Assembly: GCA_015056545.1 (NCBI GenBank)
Contig: SVGE01000001.1
Span: forward strand, 93,906 to 157,905
Length of the DNA stretch: 64,000 bases
DNA from: Clostridiales bacterium
Lineage (GTDB): Bacteria > Bacillota > Clostridia > TANB77 > SIG350
Direction of reading: 5' to 3'
Below are positions 37,707-59,467 of the stretch, piece after piece (positions within the stretch are counted from its first letter, which is position 1; every line of letters starts with the position of its first letter). A program made the translations under genes and the position numbers. A model generated the notes under the pieces. The model saw nothing but the letters and a program-made list of their open reading frames with translations, searched no databases and had not been told where the DNA came from.

Positions 37707-37989
37707 ATATTTCTCCTAATTAAAAATCTATTTATTCCTATACTATATTAAGAATAACATTCCTTGCTTAACTTTTCAACCTTTTTTATATTAATTTATT
37801 GATTATTTTTTGTTTATTATTTTAAGCCTCATTTGTCGAATTTTGCGATGAAAAGTTTTCTTTTTTGTCATTTTGGTATTTACTTATATTTTTTTATTAT
37901 ATACTTGTTCTTGATAAAGGATATGAAACCAGGAGCGGTTAGCCTCTATTTTTTAAGGTACCACCCTTAAATGAAAGGAGGCGATTTGT

Positions 37990-38070
37990 ATGGTAGAGTT
38001 AGATTACATAACATTCTTTTCTTTAATTTTTTTACTAGCTTTTATCATAAAGCAAAAAATAAAAAAATAA
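37990..38070 (+). CDS. 26-aa hydrophobic KK-terminated peptide (candidate type I toxin), module A
   Basis: SD aaaggagg 8 nt before the ATG. ORF MVELDYITFFSLIFLLAFIIKQKIKK. It is flanked by 13-14-bp inverted repeats (gcggttagcctct at 37935 and agaggctaaaccgc at 38117). Confidence 0.45.
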   Translation: MVELDYITFFSLIFLLAFIIKQKIKK

Positions 38071-38158
38071 TCCGCCCTGTTTAATTTAGCCCTAGACAGG
38101 AGATTATTTTCTTATAAGAGGCTAAACCGCTTTTGCGGAATATCCTTTATCTATTTTT

Positions 38159-38187
38159 ATTTTACGATATTTTAATTCATATGTCAA
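38159..38187 (-). promoter_or_regulatory. Convergent promoter TTGACA-17-TAAAAT (candidate antisense/antitoxin RNA), module A
   Basis: Minus-strand TTGACA (38187-38182), a 17-nt spacer and TAAAAT (38164-38159), pointing into the small ORF. It is conserved with module B. Confidence 0.45.
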
Positions 38188-38206
38188 TAATTTTAGCTAT
38201 TTTTAA

Positions 38207-41200
38207 TTAGCTAAGTATTTGTAAAAAATCTTTAACTATATCTAATATATATTCTTGTTCATTACTCTTTAATCTTTTTATAATCATATTATTTTCAATT
38301 GAAATTTCAAGTCGGTATTTATCTACTAGTTTAACAATATTATCTCCATTAATGTTATTGTTTTCTCCTATTTTAAAAATCAGCTTATTTTGTTTTTGAG
38401 ATATTTCAAATATACCTAATTTTCTACAAATATTTTTTATTTTAGCAATTTCAATTAAATTTTCTACTTCTATAGGAATACTTCCATATCTATCTACCAT
38501 TTCATCAATTATTTCTAAAATATGCTCATTTTCTGTACATAATGCAATATTCTGGTATACTTCAATTTTTTGATTTTGATTTTCTATATATGTGTCTGGT
38601 ATATATGCAGATATTTTTAAATCTATTTGAATTTCAATATCTTCATATACTGTTTCACCTTTTAATACTTTAACTGCATCATCTAATAATTTACAATACA
38701 TTTCATACCCTATTGCTTCCATATGTCCATGTTGCTCTGAACCTAAAATATTACCAGCTCCTCTTATTTCTAAATCTCTAAGAGCAATTTTAAATCCTGA
38801 ACCAAATTCAGTAAATTCTTTTATTGCTTTTAAACGTTTTTCAGAATTCTCAGATAATAGTTTATTTTTTCTATATGTTATATATGCATATGCTTGTTTG
38901 TCTTTTCTACCTACTCTACCACGTATTTGATAAAGCTGTGCTAATCCCATCTTATCTGCATTTTCAATAATCATAGTATTAGCATTTGGAATATCTAATC
39001 CTGTTTCTACAATTGTAGTACATACTAAAACATCTATTTTCTTTTCACTAAAATCATACATAATATTTTCAAGCTCATTACCTGACATTTGTCCATGTGC
39101 AAATTCTACAACCGCATTTGGTACTAGTTTTTGTATTTCAATTGCTTTTTCTTCAATATCCTCTACTTTATTATATAAATAAAATACTTGACCATTTCTT
39201 TCTAATTCTCTAATTAATGCATCTTGTATTAAATATTTGTCATATTCAAGCACATATGTCTGTACAGGTTTCCTATTATGTGGTGGATCATATATAACAC
39301 TCATGTCTCTAATACCTACAATTGACATATGAAGGGTTCTAGGAATTGGTGTTGCAGTCATAGATAATACATCAATATCTTTTTTTAGTTCTTTTATTTT
39401 TTCCTTATGTGTAACACCAAATCTATGCTCTTCATCAATAATTAAAAAACCTAAATTTTTAAATTCAACATCTTTTTGAATTAATCTATGTGTTCCAATA
39501 ACTATATCTAATTCACCTAATTTTAATTTATTAATTATATCTTGTTGCTCTTTTCTTGTCTTAAACCTATTAAGTACTTCTACTCTAATTCCATATTCTT
39601 TCATTCTTGAATTAAAAGTTTCATATTGTTGTTTAGCAAGTACTGTTGTAGGCACTAGATATGCAACTTGCTTTCCACTCATTACTGCTTTAAATGCTGC
39701 TCTTATTGCAACTTCTGTTTTACCATAACCAACATCACCACAAAGTAATCTTTCCATAGGTCTTTGTTTTTCCATATCTTGTTTAACTTCATTTATACAA
39801 CGTATTTGATCATCTGTTTCTTGATATGGGAAATCATCTTCAAACTGTTTTTGCCAATCTGTATCTGGAAGAAATGCAAAACCTTTTGAATTTTGTCTTT
39901 GTGCATATAGTTCAACTAATTTCCTAGCAACATCTTCAATACTTTTCTTAGCTTTATTTTTAGCTTTTGCCCAATCTTTTGATCCTAATTTATTAAGTTT
40001 AGGAACACCATCATTTAATGCAACATATTTTCTAATTACATCTAATTGAACTGTTGGAACATAAAGCATATCATTATTTTGATATTTAATTTTAACATAA
40101 TCTTTTTTAACACCATTTACATCAATTGTATTAATACCAATAAACTGACCAATACCATATGTAACATGTACAACATAATCATTTGGCGATAAATCTGCTA
40201 AAACAACTTTTTTTGCATCTTTAAACACAGAAGATTTATATTGTCTTTTTTTAGGTATATTTTCTTCATTACTATCACTTAATACTAATAATTTTAAGTC
40301 TCTATATTCATAACTATTAGTATTATATCCAATAGTTATATATATTTTATTTTCATCTAATTTATCTATAAAATCTATTGAATTATATTGTTTTACATTT
40401 AATTCTAAATCTACAAATTCTTTGTAGATATTGCTTGCTTTAACTTTATTTTGAAGTAATATTAAGATCGATTTTCCTTTTCTATATTCTTTTTCCACTT
40501 CCTGAATAAATATATCCATTGAATCACGAAAAAAGTTAACCTCCCTACAATTAAAACTGTATTCTTTTCTTTTTGCAGGCATATTTATATCTAAAGTGTT
40601 TTTTTCTAATCTATTTAGATATATTAATTTTTTCTTTTCTAATATATTAGTAATATATGATAAATCTAATAATTGATAAAAATAATCTGGTACAAATTTA
40701 CCTTTTTCTATTATACTTTTAATTACTTCACCATTTTCAAAAATACTATTATTAATTCTTTGTACTACTCGTTCTGGTTCATCAACAAATATTAACATAT
40801 CTTCTGGTAAATATTCAATTACACTATATGTTTTTTCATACATACAAGAAAAATATTTATCTATTTTATTCAAGTAATTACCATTTTCTATCTCTTCAAT
40901 ATCTGATTCAATCTTTTCCGCTTCTTTTACTGTTAATTTAGTTTTATTTAAATTTTTGATATTTAATATAAATTTATTTACAAAACTTTCATCTAAAATA
41001 TATTCTTCACATGGATATATCTTAACTTCATTTAACATTTCTACTGATAATTGGTTAATTACATTAAATGTTCTAATAGAGTCAATTTCATCGCCCCATA
41101 GTTCAATTCTAATACCAGTTTCTAAATTATTTGGATATACATCAATTATTCCTCCTCTAATACAAAACTGTCCTTTACCTTCAACCATTTCAACTCTTTC

Positions 41201-42531: not shown

Positions 42532-42948
42532 CTATTTAAGATTTATAGTTATATCCATTGTTGTTCCAGAATCTAATTCAGAAGCAATATTTAAAGAATC
42601 TACATTTTCTTGTATAATTCCAAAACCTCTTCCTAAACCGTATCCTTTTTGTTTAATTTCTTCATCTGCTGTTGTATAACCATCAACAAATGCCATACCA
42701 ATATTCTCAATACCTGGTCCTTTGTCTTTAAATCTTGCTTTTAAAATATTATCTTCAAGTATAACTTTTATTTCACCTGATTGAGCATAAAGTTTAATAT
42801 TTTTTTCTGCTTCAAATACAACTTTCTTTATTCTCTCTAAAATACTTTCATCAATCTGATATTCACTTAACATATCCATAATGTGTCTTGTTGCTAATCC
42901 TATATTATCTTTAGTATCAATTATCTCATTATATATTAAAGTTTCCAT
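42532..42948 (-). CDS. GHKL-type anti-sigma-factor-like Ser kinase (RsbW/SpoIIAB-like)
   Basis: 138 aa, ...FEAEKNI...DKGPGIEN...GYGLGRGFGII... Confidence 0.5.
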   Translation of the reverse strand: METLIYNEIIDTKDNIGLATRHIMDMLSEYQIDESILERIKKVVFEAEKNIKLYAQSGEIKVILEDNILKARFKDKGPGIENIGMAFVDGYTTADEEIKQKGYGLGRGFGIIQENVDSLNIASELDSGTTMDITINLK

Positions 42949-54878: not shown

Positions 54879-55910
<1,032 letters not shown>

Positions 55911-56681: not shown

Positions 56682-57611
56682 TTATATTTTATCATTACAA
56701 CATAAAACATCTCTTATTTTATGTCTAACCATTTCTTCTATTGCATCTCTTGCTGGTGATAAATATTCTCTTGGATCAAACTTACTTGGATTTTCTATAA
56801 AGAATTTTCTAATACTTGCGGTCATTGCTAATCTTAAGTCTGTATCTATATTAATTTTAGCTACTCCTAACTGACCTGCTTTTTTTAGCATATCTTCTGG
56901 AACCCCTTGTGCTCCTGGTATTTGTCCACCATATTTATTACATGCATCTACAAATTCTGGTATAACTGTTGAAGCACCATGAAGTACTATTGGAAAATGA
57001 TTTGTTCTTCTAACAATTTCTTCTAATATATCAAATCTTAACTTAGGTGTACCTTTAAATTTATATGCTCCATGGCTTGTTCCTATAGCTATAGCTAAAG
57101 AGTCACAACCTGTTCTTTGTATAAATTCAACAGCTTGATCTGGATCTGTAAATTTAGCATCATCTGCTGATACATTTACATCATCTTCAATTCCTGCTAA
57201 TTTACCTATTTCAGCTTCAACAACTACTCCTCTTTCATGTGCATAATCTACAACTCTTTTTGTTAATTCAATATTTTGTTCGAAATCATATTTTGAACCA
57301 TCTATCATTACTGATGAAAATCCTCCATCTATACAAGATTTACAAATATCAAAATCTGCTCCATGATCTAAATGAACAACTATTGGCAAATCTGTATCTT
57401 CAACTGCTGCTTCTATAAGTTTCATTAAATATACATGTTTTGCATATTTTCTAGCCCCTGCTGATACTTGAAGTATTAATGGTGCGTTTTCAGCTTTAGC
57501 AGCTTGTGTAATACCTTGGATTATTTCCATGTTATTTACATTAAATGCACCAATTGCATATCCCCCTTCTTGTGCTTTTTTAAACATTTCTGTTGATGTT
57601 ACTATTGGCAT
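56682..57611 (-). CDS. fba: Class II fructose-bisphosphate aldolase
   Basis: Start MPIVTSTEMFKKA, preceded by the SD aaaggtgg; contains HLDHG. Confidence 0.9.
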   Translation of the reverse strand: MPIVTSTEMFKKAQEGGYAIGAFNVNNMEIIQGITQAAKAENAPLILQVSAGARKYAKHVYLMKLIEAAVEDTDLPIVVHLDHGADFDICKSCIDGGFSSVMIDGSKYDFEQNIELTKRVVDYAHERGVVVEAEIGKLAGIEDDVNVSADDAKFTDPDQAVEFIQRTGCDSLAIAIGTSHGAYKFKGTPKLRFDILEEIVRRTNHFPIVLHGASTVIPEFVDACNKYGGQIPGAQGVPEDMLKKAGQLGVAKINIDTDLRLAMTASIRKFFIENPSKFDPREYLSPARDAIEEMVRHKIRDVLCCNDKI

Positions 57612-57927
57612 AATTAATTCCACCTTTCATCTTAATATATATAGCTTTAACACTATATTAAAAATCTATAACTATATTATTCTAAAATAAAATGAAAATC
57701 AAGTAAATTAATAAAAATTTTTTGATTTTCATTTTTATACTAAAAATATATATTCATTTTTCTTTGTCGAATTTCGCGATGAAAAGTATGTTTTTTTGAC
57801 AATTTTATATTTGCAAATTAAATTCAATATTATATAATCTTTCCAAGATAAAAGGAATTAAGCGGAGTGTGGTTAGTCATCTTTGTTCATATTGGATATA
57901 CCTCCTATATGAAAGAAGATGATGCTT

Positions 57928-58014
57928 ATGAGTACATATGAATCTCTATCTTTAATGATAGCATTTTCGATACTTATAATTGCTATTTTGGAATTTAAAA
58001 ATCCAAAAAAATAA
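57928..58014 (+). CDS. 28-aa hydrophobic KK-terminated peptide (candidate type I toxin), module B
   Basis: ORF MSTYESLSLMIAFSILIIAILEFKNPKK. A degenerate SD aaagaaga sits at the same 8-nt spacing as in module A. The module is flanked by inverted repeats gtggttagtca (57870-57880) and tgactaaccgc (58068-58078). Confidence 0.4.
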   Translation: MSTYESLSLMIAFSILIIAILEFKNPKK

Positions 58015-58107
58015 TTGCCTCTGTATATTTAGGTCATAACAAGGCAATTATTTAAAACACTCAAAATTTGACTAACCGCTTTTGCGGTATTCCTTTTATC
58101 TATTTAT

Positions 58108-58136
58108 ATTTTAATATGTTTTCTTATTTATGTCAA
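58108..58136 (-). promoter_or_regulatory. Convergent promoter TTGACA-17-TAAAAT (candidate antisense RNA), module B
   Basis: Minus-strand TTGACA (58136-58131), a 17-nt spacer and TAAAAT (58113-58108). The adjacent conserved block aaccgcttttgcgg.at.cctttatctattt matches module A. Confidence 0.45.
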
Positions 58137-58174
58137 TATTTTTTTGTCATTTAAGATAATAATAAATATTTTCT

Positions 58175-59467
58175 CTATAATATTAGCTCCTTCATCTTAT
58201 TTATATACTCAAGTGATTTTTCAGCATATACTTCATATTTTTTTACTTTATCTTTTATACGTATGTCTAATGGTCTAATTATACCAAAATTAGCATTCAT
58301 AGGTTGAAAATCTTTATTAGGTGTAGATATATATTTGGTTAATGCACCTAATATTGTTATATCTTCTAAAATAAATTTATCTTTTCCTAAAATATCATGT
58401 GCCATATTAATACCAGCAATTAATCCTGATGCAATTGATTCTACATACCCTTCAACACCTGTTATTTGTCCTGCAAAATATATATCTTTATTATTTATTA
58501 AGTTAAATGTGTTGTCTAAAATCTCAGGTGAGTTTATATATGTATTTCTATGCATAACACCATATCTTACAAATTCAGCATTTTCAAGTCCAGGTATTAA
58601 ACTAAATACTCTTTTTTGTTCTCCAAACTTAAGATTTGTTTGGAATCCTACTAAATTAAATAATGTTCCTTCTTCATTATCTTGCCTTAATTGAACTACT
58701 GCACATGGTCTATTCTCTCTATCAAAACCAACTGGTTTAAGCATACCAAATAATAATGTTTTCTCACCTCTTCTAGCCATTTCTTCTATTGGCATACATC
58801 CTTCAAATAAATTACCTTTTTCAAAATCTTTTTTCTCAACTATTTCTGCATTAATAAGCTCTGTATAAAATCTAGCATATTCTTCATCTGTCATAGGACA
58901 ATTTATATAATCACTATCCCCTTTTCCATATCTATCTGCTCTAAATACTTTTTCTTTATCTATACTATCATATGTAACAATAGGGGCAGCTGCATCATAA
59001 AATGATAAATATTCTTTACCAATAATTTTACTAATTACATTTGAAAAACTTTCTGAAGTAAGCGGTCCTGTCGCTATTATTGTTTTACCTTCTGGCAGAC
59101 TAGTTACTTCTTCTCTAATTATTTTAATATTTTCAAATTCACTTATTTTTTGTGTTACTAGATTTGCAAAATTATCTCTATCTACTGCTAATGCTTGCCC
59201 TGCAGGTACTTTTGTTTTATCTGCACATTTAATAAGTAAACTATCTAACTGTCTTAATTCTTCTTTAAGCAGACCACAAGCATTTGTTAATTTATCTGAT
59301 TTAAATGAATTACTACAAACTATTTCAGCTAAATTATTATTACTATGTGCTGGTGAATATTTATTTGGTTTCATTTCATATAATCTTACTTTTATTCCTC
59401 TTTTAGCTAATTGGTATGCAGCTTCACACCCTGCTAGTCCTCCACCAATTATATTTACATATTCCAT
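58175..59467 (-). CDS. trmFO: Methylenetetrahydrofolate--tRNA-(U54-C5)-methyltransferase TrmFO
   Basis: [22 protein letters not shown] motif; 430 aa of the Gid/TrmFO type. Confidence 0.9.

What the first reader, a model, noticed from the sequence alone, without database searches (positions are those of the whole stretch)
57760..58140. Intergenic module B: second copy of the small-peptide / antisense-promoter module (28-aa peptide)
Between fba and trmFO lies the same modular layout as module A. It shares the conserved left block (ttgtcgaatttcgcgatgaaaag) and a + strand promoter region containing TTGACA and tatataat. The 28-aa ORF is MSTYESLSLMIAFSILIIAILEFKNPKK, with a degenerate SD aaagaaga at the same 8-nt spacing as module A. 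It has flanking inverted repeats (gtggttagtca / tgactaaccgc), the conserved block aaccgcttttgcggtattcctttatctattt, and an identical-architecture minus-strand TTGACA-17-TAAAAT promoter. The peptide sequences have diverged but keep the same polar / TM / KK design. That pattern fits duplicated type I toxin loci under selection for function rather than sequence.
Basis: partly seen in the sequence, partly recalled or inferred. Interest (0 to 1): 0.55.

Follow-up and report, generated by a model that had tools for sequence, protein, structure and literature searches.

The report
BsrG-like type I toxin-antitoxin locus
The fba-trmFO spacer of this uncultured gut Clostridiales genome holds a small membrane-toxin gene with a convergent antisense RNA gene, built like the well-studied bsrG/SR4 and txpA/RatA systems, so it is a new member of a known kind.

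Summary

- **The peptide.** The 28-aa ORF (57928-58014) is a real gene. It hits Pfam Hol_Tox (PF16935) at 42.9 bits against a 23.3-bit cut-off. It is 52-54% identical to toxins that sit inside Rfam-confirmed BsrG and RatA loci. Against a homolog in another metagenome contig it shows pS 0.96 and pN 0.13.
- **The toxin mRNA.** The predicted transcript (about 57845-58102) folds like probed bsrG RNA. About 35 nt at the 5' end pair with about 35 nt at the 3' end, and a hairpin buries the Shine-Dalgarno sequence. Fold z-scores are -9.9 (B) and -7.6 (A), with 8 compensatory pairs between A and B.
- **The antisense RNA.** A near-consensus minus-strand promoter (TTGACA-17-TAAAAT) would give an RNA of about 100 nt, complementary to the mRNA 3' end, that stops at the toxin stop codon.
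- **The left block.** It is not toxin-specific. The same 24-nt box lies 3 or 23 nt upstream of promoters of unrelated genes in at least 120 AT-rich metagenome contigs. It is probably a lineage-specific regulator site.

No transcript or toxicity data exist. The locus is a new member of a known kind and of modest interest.

The parts
57764..57787 (+). Left box TTGTCGAATTTCGCGATGAAAAGT. It lies upstream of the promoter and is not toxin-specific. Its first heptamer, from base 2, is TGTCGAA.
   Evidence: locate it. One search found the same box in at least 120 metagenome contigs. Its spacing to the -35 hexamer is bimodal, +3 or +23/24. The downstream genes are unrelated.
57810..57838 (+). Most likely toxin promoter, TTTGCA-17-TATAAT, with a predicted start near 57845. 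An alternative, TTGACA-17-TAAATT, lies at 57796-57824.
   Evidence: scores both at 10/12. The TTTGCA hexamer starts 23 nt after the left box, which is one of the two preferred registers. A start at about 57845 coincides with the first base of the 5'-3' helix.
57845..58102 (+). Predicted toxin mRNA of about 258 nt.
   Evidence: MFE is -84.8 kcal/mol against -43.1 for shuffles, z=-9.9. The consensus fold with module A has 44 pairs, 8 of them compensatory. Rfam BsrG gives a weak match at 57898-58010: 24.9 bits, E=6e-4, below the gathering score of 55.
57846..57884 (+). 5' arm of the long end-to-end helix, the counterpart of bsrG helix P1.
   Evidence: I5, I7. Covariation with module A: AAAAGGAAU/AUUCCUUUU in B against AAAGGAUAU/AUAUCCUUU in A.
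57877..57922 (+). Hairpin that sequesters the SD. Arms are 57877-57896 and 57903-57922; the SD GAAAGAAGA is at 57911-57919.
   Evidence: I1: 20 nt, 85% complementary. P(paired) of the SD is 0.84. An equivalent hairpin exists in module A and in L144.
57928..58014 (+). Toxin ORF of 28 aa, MSTYESLSLMIAFSILIIAILEFKNPKK, Hol_Tox / TxpA-BsrG family.
   Evidence: Pfam PF16935 E=4e-11, 42.9 bits against a cut-off of 23.3. phrog_9488 E=5e-10. Homologs P0121 (79% identity) and P0122 (70%). pS 0.96 and pN 0.13 against L144. The TM core at residues 7-21 has mean KD 2.96.
58009..58053 (.). Two-way hairpin AAATAATTGCCT...AGGCAATTATTT directly after the stop codon. On the minus strand a run of 7 U follows, which makes it the antisense terminator.
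   Evidence: (I8: 12/12). Module A and L144 have the same arrangement.
58064..58101 (+). 3' arm of the end-to-end helix. It contains the small hairpin ACCGCTTTTGCGGT (58075-58088) followed by a T-rich tail, the likely mRNA terminator.
   Evidence: flags it as the only terminator-like site, against 0.0 expected. Searches support the pairing.
58108..58136 (-). Antitoxin promoter TTGACA-17-TAAAAT, with a predicted start near 58101.
   Evidence: scores it 11/12. The identical architecture occurs in module A.
58003..58101 (-). Predicted antisense antitoxin RNA of about 100 nt. It has a 5' hairpin CCGCAAAAGCGG and a terminator hairpin with U7. It is fully complementary to the toxin mRNA 3' end and the last codons.
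   Evidence: z=-3.1. Covariance model R1 finds only this copy, module A and L144 in the sequence held, and does not cross-match RatA or SR4 loci. No Rfam antitoxin family matches at E<=10.
37833..38187 (+). Module A, the paralogous locus. Left box 37833-37856; predicted mRNA about 37912-38154; ORF 37990-38070 (MVELDYITFFSLIFLLAFIIKQKIKK); antisense promoter 38187-38159; antisense RNA about 38153-38058.

Best explanation
Module B is a chromosomal type I toxin-antitoxin locus of the TxpA/BsrG (Pfam Hol_Tox) kind.

- **Toxin transcript.** A sigma-70-type promoter (TTTGCA-17-TATAAT) would give a plus-strand mRNA of about 258 nt. It encodes a 28-aa single-helix membrane peptide with a lysine tail.
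- **Built-in translational block.** The mRNA is predicted to fold so that its first ~35 nt pair with its last ~35 nt. A hairpin next to that helix buries the weak Shine-Dalgarno sequence, so the full-length transcript should be poorly translated.
- **Antitoxin.** A stronger convergent promoter (TTGACA-17-TAAAAT) would give an antisense RNA of about 100 nt. It is perfectly complementary to the mRNA 3' end.
- **Inferred action, by analogy with SR4 on bsrG.** Pairing would create a long duplex for RNase III. It would also displace the mRNA 5' arm, which then extends the SD-blocking helix (module B) or forms it (module A).

The sequence shows the ORF family, the promoters, the complementarity and the covariation. 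Transcription, translation, toxicity and the RNase III step are inferred.

The left box is a separate upstream regulatory site shared with many other promoters of this lineage.
For: - **Peptide family.** Pfam Hol_Tox scores 42.9 bits against a cut-off of 23.3, E=4e-11. There are weak NCBIfam hits to ComI and to the type I toxin PepG1.
- **Homologs in known systems.** tblastn gives 52-64% identity to plasmid and phage loci annotated 'putative holin-like toxin'. The E. faecalis pGTC3 homolog lies next to an Rfam RatA antitoxin (64 bits). The SPbeta-like phage homolog lies inside an Rfam BsrG RNA (212 bits).
- **Coding selection.** Against L144 there are 14.7 synonymous and 7.3 non-synonymous differences, giving pS 0.96 and pN 0.13. 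The indel between peptides A and B is in frame.
- **RNA structure.** Fold z-scores are -9.9 (B) and -7.6 (A). RNAalifold gives 44 pairs with 8 double-sided compensatory changes between A and B.
- **SD occlusion.** The SD has a paired probability of 0.8-0.9. Blocking the 3' region lengthens the SD helix in B and forms it in A.
- **Match to probed bsrG RNA.** In bsrG, nt 1-35 pair with nt 232-262 (helix P1) and the SD sits in stem-loop SL1. SR4 binding melts P1 and extends the SD helix from 4 to 8 bp (PMC3834814).
- **Promoter strengths.** The antisense promoter scores 11/12 in both copies and the toxin promoter 10/12. In bsrG/SR4 the antitoxin promoter is also the stronger one (PMC3834814).
- **Antisense terminator.** It abuts the stop codon in B, A and L144.
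Against: - There is no transcript, translation or toxicity evidence of any kind.
- The SD of module B is degenerate (GAAAGAAGA), so the peptide may be made rarely or not at all.
- Rfam BsrG scores only 24.9 bits against a gathering score of 55.
- No known antitoxin RNA family matches the antisense strand.
- Only three loci (A, B, L144) support the RNA family, and the covariation rests on two sequences.
- Peptide A has no family hit.
- The locus lies between housekeeping genes, not in the prophage or plasmid setting typical of bsrG and txpA.
Confidence: 0.75

Rival explanations
1. The ORF encodes a small membrane peptide of the same family with a regulatory rather than toxic role, as ComI of B. 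subtilis pBS32 inhibits competence. The antisense RNA would then simply tune its level, and the locus would not be an addiction or toxin module.
For: The best NCBIfam hit is ComI (E=3e-4, 20.4 bits, far below its cut-off of 55). The module sits between housekeeping genes with no mobile-element context. The weak SD suggests low output.
Against: The closest annotated relatives are toxins of RatA- and BsrG-type systems. The elaborate translational lock and the full-length antisense RNA are the hallmarks of genes whose product must be kept off (PMC3834814).
Confidence: 0.12
2. The locus is a decaying or silent relic. The RNA signals are inherited from an ancestral type I module, but module B is no longer translated, and perhaps no longer transcribed.
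For: The SD is degenerate in B, compared with AAAGGAGG in A and AAGGAGG in L144. In module A the -35 and -10 hexamers are only 15 nt apart. The predicted occupancy of the SD hairpin is 0.84.
Against: The ORF is intact and under purifying selection relative to L144. Compensatory changes maintain the helices in both copies. The antisense promoter is near consensus in both copies.
Confidence: 0.08
3. The inverted repeats flanking the ORF are the terminal repeats of a miniature mobile element, and the small ORF is incidental.
For: Inverted repeats of about 35 bp flank a segment of about 190 bp. There are two copies in 64 kb.
Against: A/B homology extends beyond both repeats, to the left box on one side and to the antisense -35 on the other, so the repeats are internal and not terminal. 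The two arms co-vary between the copies, as expected for RNA pairing. The ORF belongs to a curated protein family and evolves as a coding sequence. No further copies were found in about 870 kb of related contigs.
Confidence: 0.03

Closest known systems
bsrG/SR4 of Bacillus subtilis prophage SPbeta (TxpA/BsrG family; Rfam RF01412)
   Same: - The toxin N-terminus has the same family signature (M-S/T-x-Y/F-E/Q-x-L-x-L-M-I/L-x-F) and a K-rich tail.
- The antisense RNA is convergent and overlaps the mRNA 3' end.
- The mRNA 5' end (~35 nt) pairs with the 3' end (~35 nt).
- The SD lies in the first internal stem-loop, and the stop codon lies at the 5' side of the last internal hairpin.
- The antitoxin promoter is the stronger one (PMC3834814).
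   Different: - The peptide is 28 aa, against 38 aa for BsrG.
- The antisense RNA is about 100 nt and wholly complementary, against about 180 nt for SR4 with a non-complementary 5' part.
- There is no separate terminator stem-loop after the long helix. A 5-bp hairpin inside the 3' arm plus a T-tract seems to serve instead.
- The Rfam BsrG score is below threshold (24.9 against 55).
- The locus is chromosomal, between fba and trmFO, in a Clostridiales MAG, not in a prophage.
txpA/RatA-type loci on Enterococcus and Listeria plasmids (PGAP 'putative holin-like toxin'; Rfam RatA RF01776)
   Same: The toxin has the same 28-aa length and is 53.6% identical (MSVFEALSLMIAFATLVLLIIDHTNTKK). A convergent antitoxin RNA lies downstream.
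   Different: The antisense RNA here has no detectable similarity to RatA. The toxin mRNA does not match rli28.
hok/Sok and aapA1/IsoA1 (Gram-negative type I systems)
   Same: A long-distance 5'-3' fold-back keeps the full-length toxin mRNA translationally inert (mentioned in PMC3834814).
   Different: In those systems the antisense RNA targets the 5' region or the translation start. The toxins are unrelated.
Clostridioides difficile type I TA modules (CD2517.1-RCd8 and others)
   Same: Clostridial host, a small hydrophobic peptide with a lysine-rich C-terminus, and a cis-antisense antitoxin (PMC6563280).
   Different: The C. difficile toxins are 30-56 aa and share no sequence similarity with the B. 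subtilis families. They are mostly in prophages or next to CRISPR arrays. The peptide here belongs to the TxpA/BsrG lineage, which that review says had been found in few Clostridia.

Membership tests
Pfam PF16935 Hol_Tox (TxpA/BsrG-type type I toxins) | Profile HMM score above the curated gathering threshold | tested here: met
   42.9 bits against 23.3, E=4e-11, residues 1-24 on profile positions 1-24. Peptide A does not hit.
Pfam PF16935 Hol_Tox (TxpA/BsrG-type type I toxins) | Fewer than 60 aa, one N-terminal transmembrane helix, charged C-terminus | tested here: met
   28 aa. Residues 7-21 (LSLMIAFSILIIAIL) have mean Kyte-Doolittle 2.96. The tail is KNPKK.
Pfam PF16935 Hol_Tox (TxpA/BsrG-type type I toxins) | Toxic to the cell when overexpressed | not testable with these tools
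   Needs an expression experiment.
bsrG/SR4-type type I TA system | Convergent antisense gene overlapping the toxin mRNA 3' end (promoter and terminator signals) | tested here: met
   TTGACA-17-TAAAAT scores 11/12 in both copies. A terminator hairpin with U7 ends at the stop codon. These are sequence signals only.
bsrG/SR4-type type I TA system | Toxin mRNA with a long 5'-3' helix and an SD sequestered in the first stem-loop | tested here: met
   compared with probed bsrG RNA (PMC3834814).
bsrG/SR4-type type I TA system | The antisense RNA is made, pairs with the mRNA and neutralises the toxin (RNase III decay, translation block) | not testable with these tools
   Needs Northern blots or RNA-seq, half-life measurements and rescue assays.
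Rfam RF01412 BsrG RNA | Covariance-model score at or above the gathering score | tested here: not met
   24.9 bits against 55 (E=6e-4 in a 561-nt search). The positive control, SPbeta-like L142, scores 212 bits.
Rfam RF01776 RatA and other curated antitoxin RNAs | Covariance-model match on the antisense strand | tested here: not met
   No such hit at E<=10 in module B or A. The positive control, L143, scores 64 bits. Model R1 of this antisense RNA does not hit L142 or L143.
Spo0A '0A box' (considered for the left box) | TGTCGAA heptamer upstream of a promoter | tested here: met
   The heptamer is at 57765 and 37834. Only one other copy occurs in 64 kb. The consensus itself is recalled from my own knowledge.
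Spo0A '0A box' (considered for the left box) | Found upstream of the classical Spo0A targets (spoIIA, spoIIE, spoIIG, abrB) | tested here: not met
   None of the 64 downstream ORFs behind the full box is a sporulation gene. They are Rpn/YhgA-like nucleases, sortases, TasA-like proteins, pilins and TA genes. The exact-match scan biases this sample.
MITE / small mobile element | Inverted repeats at the element termini, target-site duplication, many dispersed copies | tested here: not met
   The repeats are internal to the A/B homology. There are two copies in the window and none in about 870 kb of related contigs.

The most novel reading that the evidence does not exclude
The 24-nt left box (WTGTCGAATTTYGCGATGAAAAGT) may be the operator of an undescribed regulator in an uncultured, very AT-rich gut and rumen Clostridiales lineage. 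It sits in a fixed register, 3 or 23 nt upstream of the -35 hexamer. It would tie together a regulon of accessory genes: type I toxins (modules A, B and L109), a Phd/RelE-like type II pair, Rpn/YhgA-like nucleases, sortases with pilins, and TasA-like fibres. The toxin genes would then be switched on as part of a programmed response rather than expressed constitutively. The box also seems to be an insertion target, because one IS is flanked by a 28-bp direct duplication that contains it.
Probability: 0.4. Interest if true: 0.55.

Novelty: new member of a known kind. Interest (0 to 1): 0.3.

Why it matters
The locus extends the TxpA/BsrG type I toxin lineage to an uncultured Clostridiales gut bacterium. 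A 2019 review reported that homologs of known type I toxins had been found in only a few Clostridia (PMC6563280). The 5'-3' helix and SD-hairpin design of bsrG mRNA appears to be kept, even though the antisense RNA and most of the mRNA sequence have no detectable similarity to the Bacillus loci. That design is therefore probably ancestral to the family.

In practice, gene callers miss such 28-aa genes. No gene with this product is on record for this sequence. The shared upstream box is the only part that could lead to something new, namely a lineage-specific regulon that includes the toxin genes.

Tried and rejected
- **Genome scan with the right block** (CCGCTTTTGCGGNATNNNNTTTATC, GTDB representative genomes). 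The 11 hits were all chance terminators or coding matches in unrelated taxa.
- **Viral-contig scans.** The right block and a back-translated N-terminus pattern each gave 0 hits.
- The search for homologous proteins and the search for related loci reject the 28-aa peptide as too short. A search with the 57-aa miscalled homolog P0122 returned only itself.
- **Exact look-up of the 31-aa ORF.** It is not on record.
- **Orthologous-spacer test.** The nearest TrmFO relatives (73-79% identity) have different neighbours. Same-species contigs are identical across the spacer (0-11 mismatches over the 5-9 kb compared), so they say nothing about selection.
- **Left box as leader peptide, rRNA or tRNA promoter, or known RNA.** No 16S rRNA lies downstream. 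No Rfam family lies next to it. The reading frame after ATG/TTG-TCG-AAT is not conserved.
- **Left box as sigma-54, ECF or sigma-D promoter, or as a CodY, CcpA, LexA, Rex or TnrA site.** Spacing or sequence does not fit the consensus sequences as I recall them. These were not tool-tested.
- **Left box in cultured organisms or the literature.** Only chance matches in the plasmid and phage collections, and no paper contains the sequence.
- **MITE reading.** Rejected; see the rival explanations.

Full report
**Setting.** The window has 25% G+C. NCBI labels the source 'MAG ... [Clostridiales bacterium]' for the GAPDH gene encoded at 54879-55889. The finding lies between a class II fructose-bisphosphate aldolase gene (56682-57623, minus strand) and trmFO (58175-59467, minus strand). 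Pfam domains and a source name confirm both.

**Observation.**
- The left block is at 57764-57786. Its only other occurrence in the window is in module A, with 1 mismatch; shuffles gave none.
- The 28-aa ORF is at 57928-58014.
- The minus-strand promoter TTGACA-17-TAAAAT scores 11/12 in both modules.
- The inverted repeats are longer than reported: 57846-57858 with 58089-58101 is 13/13, and 57871-57884 pairs with 58064-58077.
- A and B align over about 380 nt. The non-coding blocks are strongly conserved, and the ORFs differ by an in-frame 6-nt indel. The right-hand 70 nt give blastn E=1e-11.
- Two details need correction. TTGACA and TATAAT on the plus strand are 31 nt apart, so they belong to two alternative promoters. 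The quoted right block lacks one T.

**The ORF is a real gene of a known toxin family.**
- Peptide B hits Pfam Hol_Tox (PF16935) at E=4e-11, 42.9 bits against a cut-off of 23.3. It also hits phrog_9488, and weakly ComI and the type I toxin PepG1.
- tblastn finds 52-64% identical peptides on Enterococcus, Listeria and Bacillus plasmids, several annotated 'putative holin-like toxin', and in SPbeta-like and Brevibacillus phages.
- Two hits were checked as positive controls. The E. faecalis pGTC3 homolog (28 aa, 53.6% identical) is followed by a convergent Rfam RatA antitoxin at 64 bits. The SPbeta-like homolog lies inside an Rfam BsrG RNA at 212 bits.
- A library of 1.8 billion representative proteins holds two close relatives, at 79% and 70% identity.
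- The contig of the second relative (L144) gives a codon-level comparison: 14.7 synonymous against 7.3 non-synonymous differences in 24 codons, so pS is 0.96 and pN is 0.13. That is strong purifying selection on the peptide.
- Peptide A has no family hit and is only 24% identical to B. It shares the same polar / transmembrane / KK layout.

**RNA architecture.**
- From the TTTGCA-17-TATAAT promoter the mRNA should start near 57845. The segment 57845-58102 folds to -84.8 kcal/mol, against -43.1 for shuffles (z=-9.9). The module A counterpart gives z=-7.6.
A hairpin next to this helix buries the SD (I1). The stop codon abuts a strong hairpin.
- The consensus fold of A and B has 44 pairs, 8 of which keep pairing through changes on both sides. 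Examples lie in the terminal helix (AAAAGGAAU/AUUCCUUUU against AAAGGAUAU/AUAUCCUUU) and in the SD helix.
- This is the architecture established by probing for bsrG RNA. There, nt 1-35 pair with nt 232-262 in helix P1, the SD sits in the stem of SL1, and the stop codon sits at the 5' side of SL3 (PMC3834814).
- Rfam's BsrG model matches 57898-58010 weakly: 24.9 bits, E=6e-4, below the gathering score.

**Antisense RNA.**
- The minus-strand promoter predicts a start near 58101, which is the outer end of the terminal helix. The RNA would carry a 5' hairpin (CCGCAAAAGCGG) and a terminator hairpin followed by seven U, ending at the toxin stop codon. Module A is built the same way. L144 keeps the terminator at the stop codon and the GGCTAAACCGC...GCGG...TCCTTTTAT block.
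- The antisense RNA is therefore complementary to the 3' arm of the terminal helix, and its 5' part resembles the mRNA 5' arm. The model's faint self-hit at 57843-57893 shows this resemblance.
- No curated antitoxin RNA family matches. A covariance model of this RNA finds only A, B and L144 in the 64-kb window plus about 870 kb of other loci, and it does not cross-hit the RatA or SR4 loci.

**Mechanism (inferred).**
- The SD is predicted to be paired (P about 0.8-0.9) in the free mRNA.
- When the 3' region is blocked, as it would be by the antisense RNA, the released 5' arm lengthens the SD helix by three pairs in B. In A the released arm switches from the 3' partner to the SD.
- This mirrors SR4, which melts P1, extends the SD helix from 4 to 8 bp and triggers RNase III decay (PMC3834814).
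- The sequence shows the complementarity and its conservation. The rest is analogy.

**The left box is something else.**
These give 87 distinct instances, with a median contig G+C of 27%.
- None of the other contigs encodes a peptide B homolog.
- The box is preceded by W-T-G and followed by T. It often comes straight after the upstream gene's terminator.
- It lies at two sharply preferred distances from the best -35 hexamer: +3 (31 cases) and +23/24 (33 cases). This holds across unrelated downstream gene families.
- Both window modules have a -35-like hexamer at +23.
- The downstream genes are mostly Rpn/YhgA-like PD-(D/E)XK nucleases (27 of 64) and sortases (16 of 64). Others are TasA-like proteins, LPXTG pilins, a Phd/RelE-like pair and an IS. 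One is another small hydrophobic-peptide locus with a convergent promoter (L109).
- The box starts with the Spo0A heptamer TGTCGAA (my own knowledge), but no sporulation gene is among the targets.
- It is absent from the plasmid and phage collections and from the searchable literature.
- L144, the closest toxin homolog with DNA available, lacks the box.
- I read the box as the binding site of a lineage-specific transcription factor, with low confidence.

**What could not be done.**
- The spacer is not conserved in the nearest relatives, because synteny is broken at 79% TrmFO identity and below.
- Same-species contigs are identical across the spacer (0-11 mismatches over the 5-9 kb compared).
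- The covariation evidence therefore rests on two, and in part three, loci.

**Verdict.** This is a well-formed type I toxin-antitoxin locus of the TxpA/BsrG kind. The toxin is a member of the family by sequence. The RNA design works like bsrG/SR4, but it is not a member of the curated BsrG, RatA or SR4 RNA families by score. It is a new member of a known kind, and the interest is modest. The promoter-upstream box is the one loose end worth following.

Noticed in passing
window 57764-57787 and 37833-37856; loci L015-L134: The 24-nt box WTGTCGAATTTYGCGATGAAAAGT occurs in at least 120 AT-rich metagenome contigs. It is always upstream of a sigma-70-like promoter, at +3 or +23/24 nt from the -35 hexamer. 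The genes behind it are unrelated: Rpn/YhgA-like nucleases, sortases, TasA-like proteins, pilins and TA genes. It is absent from the plasmid and phage collections and from the literature searched.
   Followed up: partly
L034 603-630 and 1763-1790 (also L096); empty site in L058 618-645: An IS with an rve-type transposase gene is flanked by a 28-bp direct duplication, ATGTCGAATTTTGCGATGAAAAGTGATT, that contains the whole box. L058, L118 and L130 carry the uninterrupted site. The duplication is unusually long for a target-site duplication, which suggests that the box is an insertion target.
   Followed up: partly
L109 165-460 (minus strand): This is a third small-peptide locus with the same layout in another contig. 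It has the left box, a promoter at +3, an SD hairpin, a 22-aa hydrophobic ORF ([22 protein letters not shown]), a two-way terminator and a convergent TTGACA-17-TAATAT promoter. The peptide is unrelated to A and B.
   Followed up: partly
L144 810-1070: This is the closest toxin homolog with DNA available (MSTYETLSLMISFSILVIAILKFREKK). The gene caller extended it to 57 aa by reading into the 5' UTR. It lies near an HTH_3 repressor-like gene in a 2.8-kb contig. It has no left box and no obvious consensus antisense promoter.
   Followed up: partly
window 58102-58175 and 38155-38207 (minus strand): No terminator-like structure lies between the trmFO stop codon and the antisense promoter, and none was flagged between the mfd stop codon and the antisense promoter of module A. 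Read-through from these housekeeping genes would therefore produce extra antitoxin-containing RNA ending at the antisense terminator.
   Followed up: partly
L142 582-695 (Bacillus phage SPbetaL8, OQ921348.1): The deposited CDS WIT28162.1 is in a different frame from the BsrG-like 27-aa ORF (601-684, MSTFQALMLMLAFGSFIIALLTYINKK). That ORF lies inside the Rfam BsrG match. The annotation is probably wrong.
   Followed up: no
window 37879-37905: In module A the hexamers that align with module B's toxin promoter (TTTACT and TATACT) are only 15 nt apart, because of a 2-nt deletion relative to B. The toxin promoter of copy A may be weak or use other hexamers, such as TTGGTA-16-TATTAT.
   Followed up: no
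window 42532-42948 (minus strand): A 138-aa ORF has a weak anti-sigma F (SpoIIAB) like match: 49.5 bits against a cut-off of 135. Relatives' contigs carry SpoIIID (L136). Both are consistent with an endospore-forming lineage.
   Followed up: no
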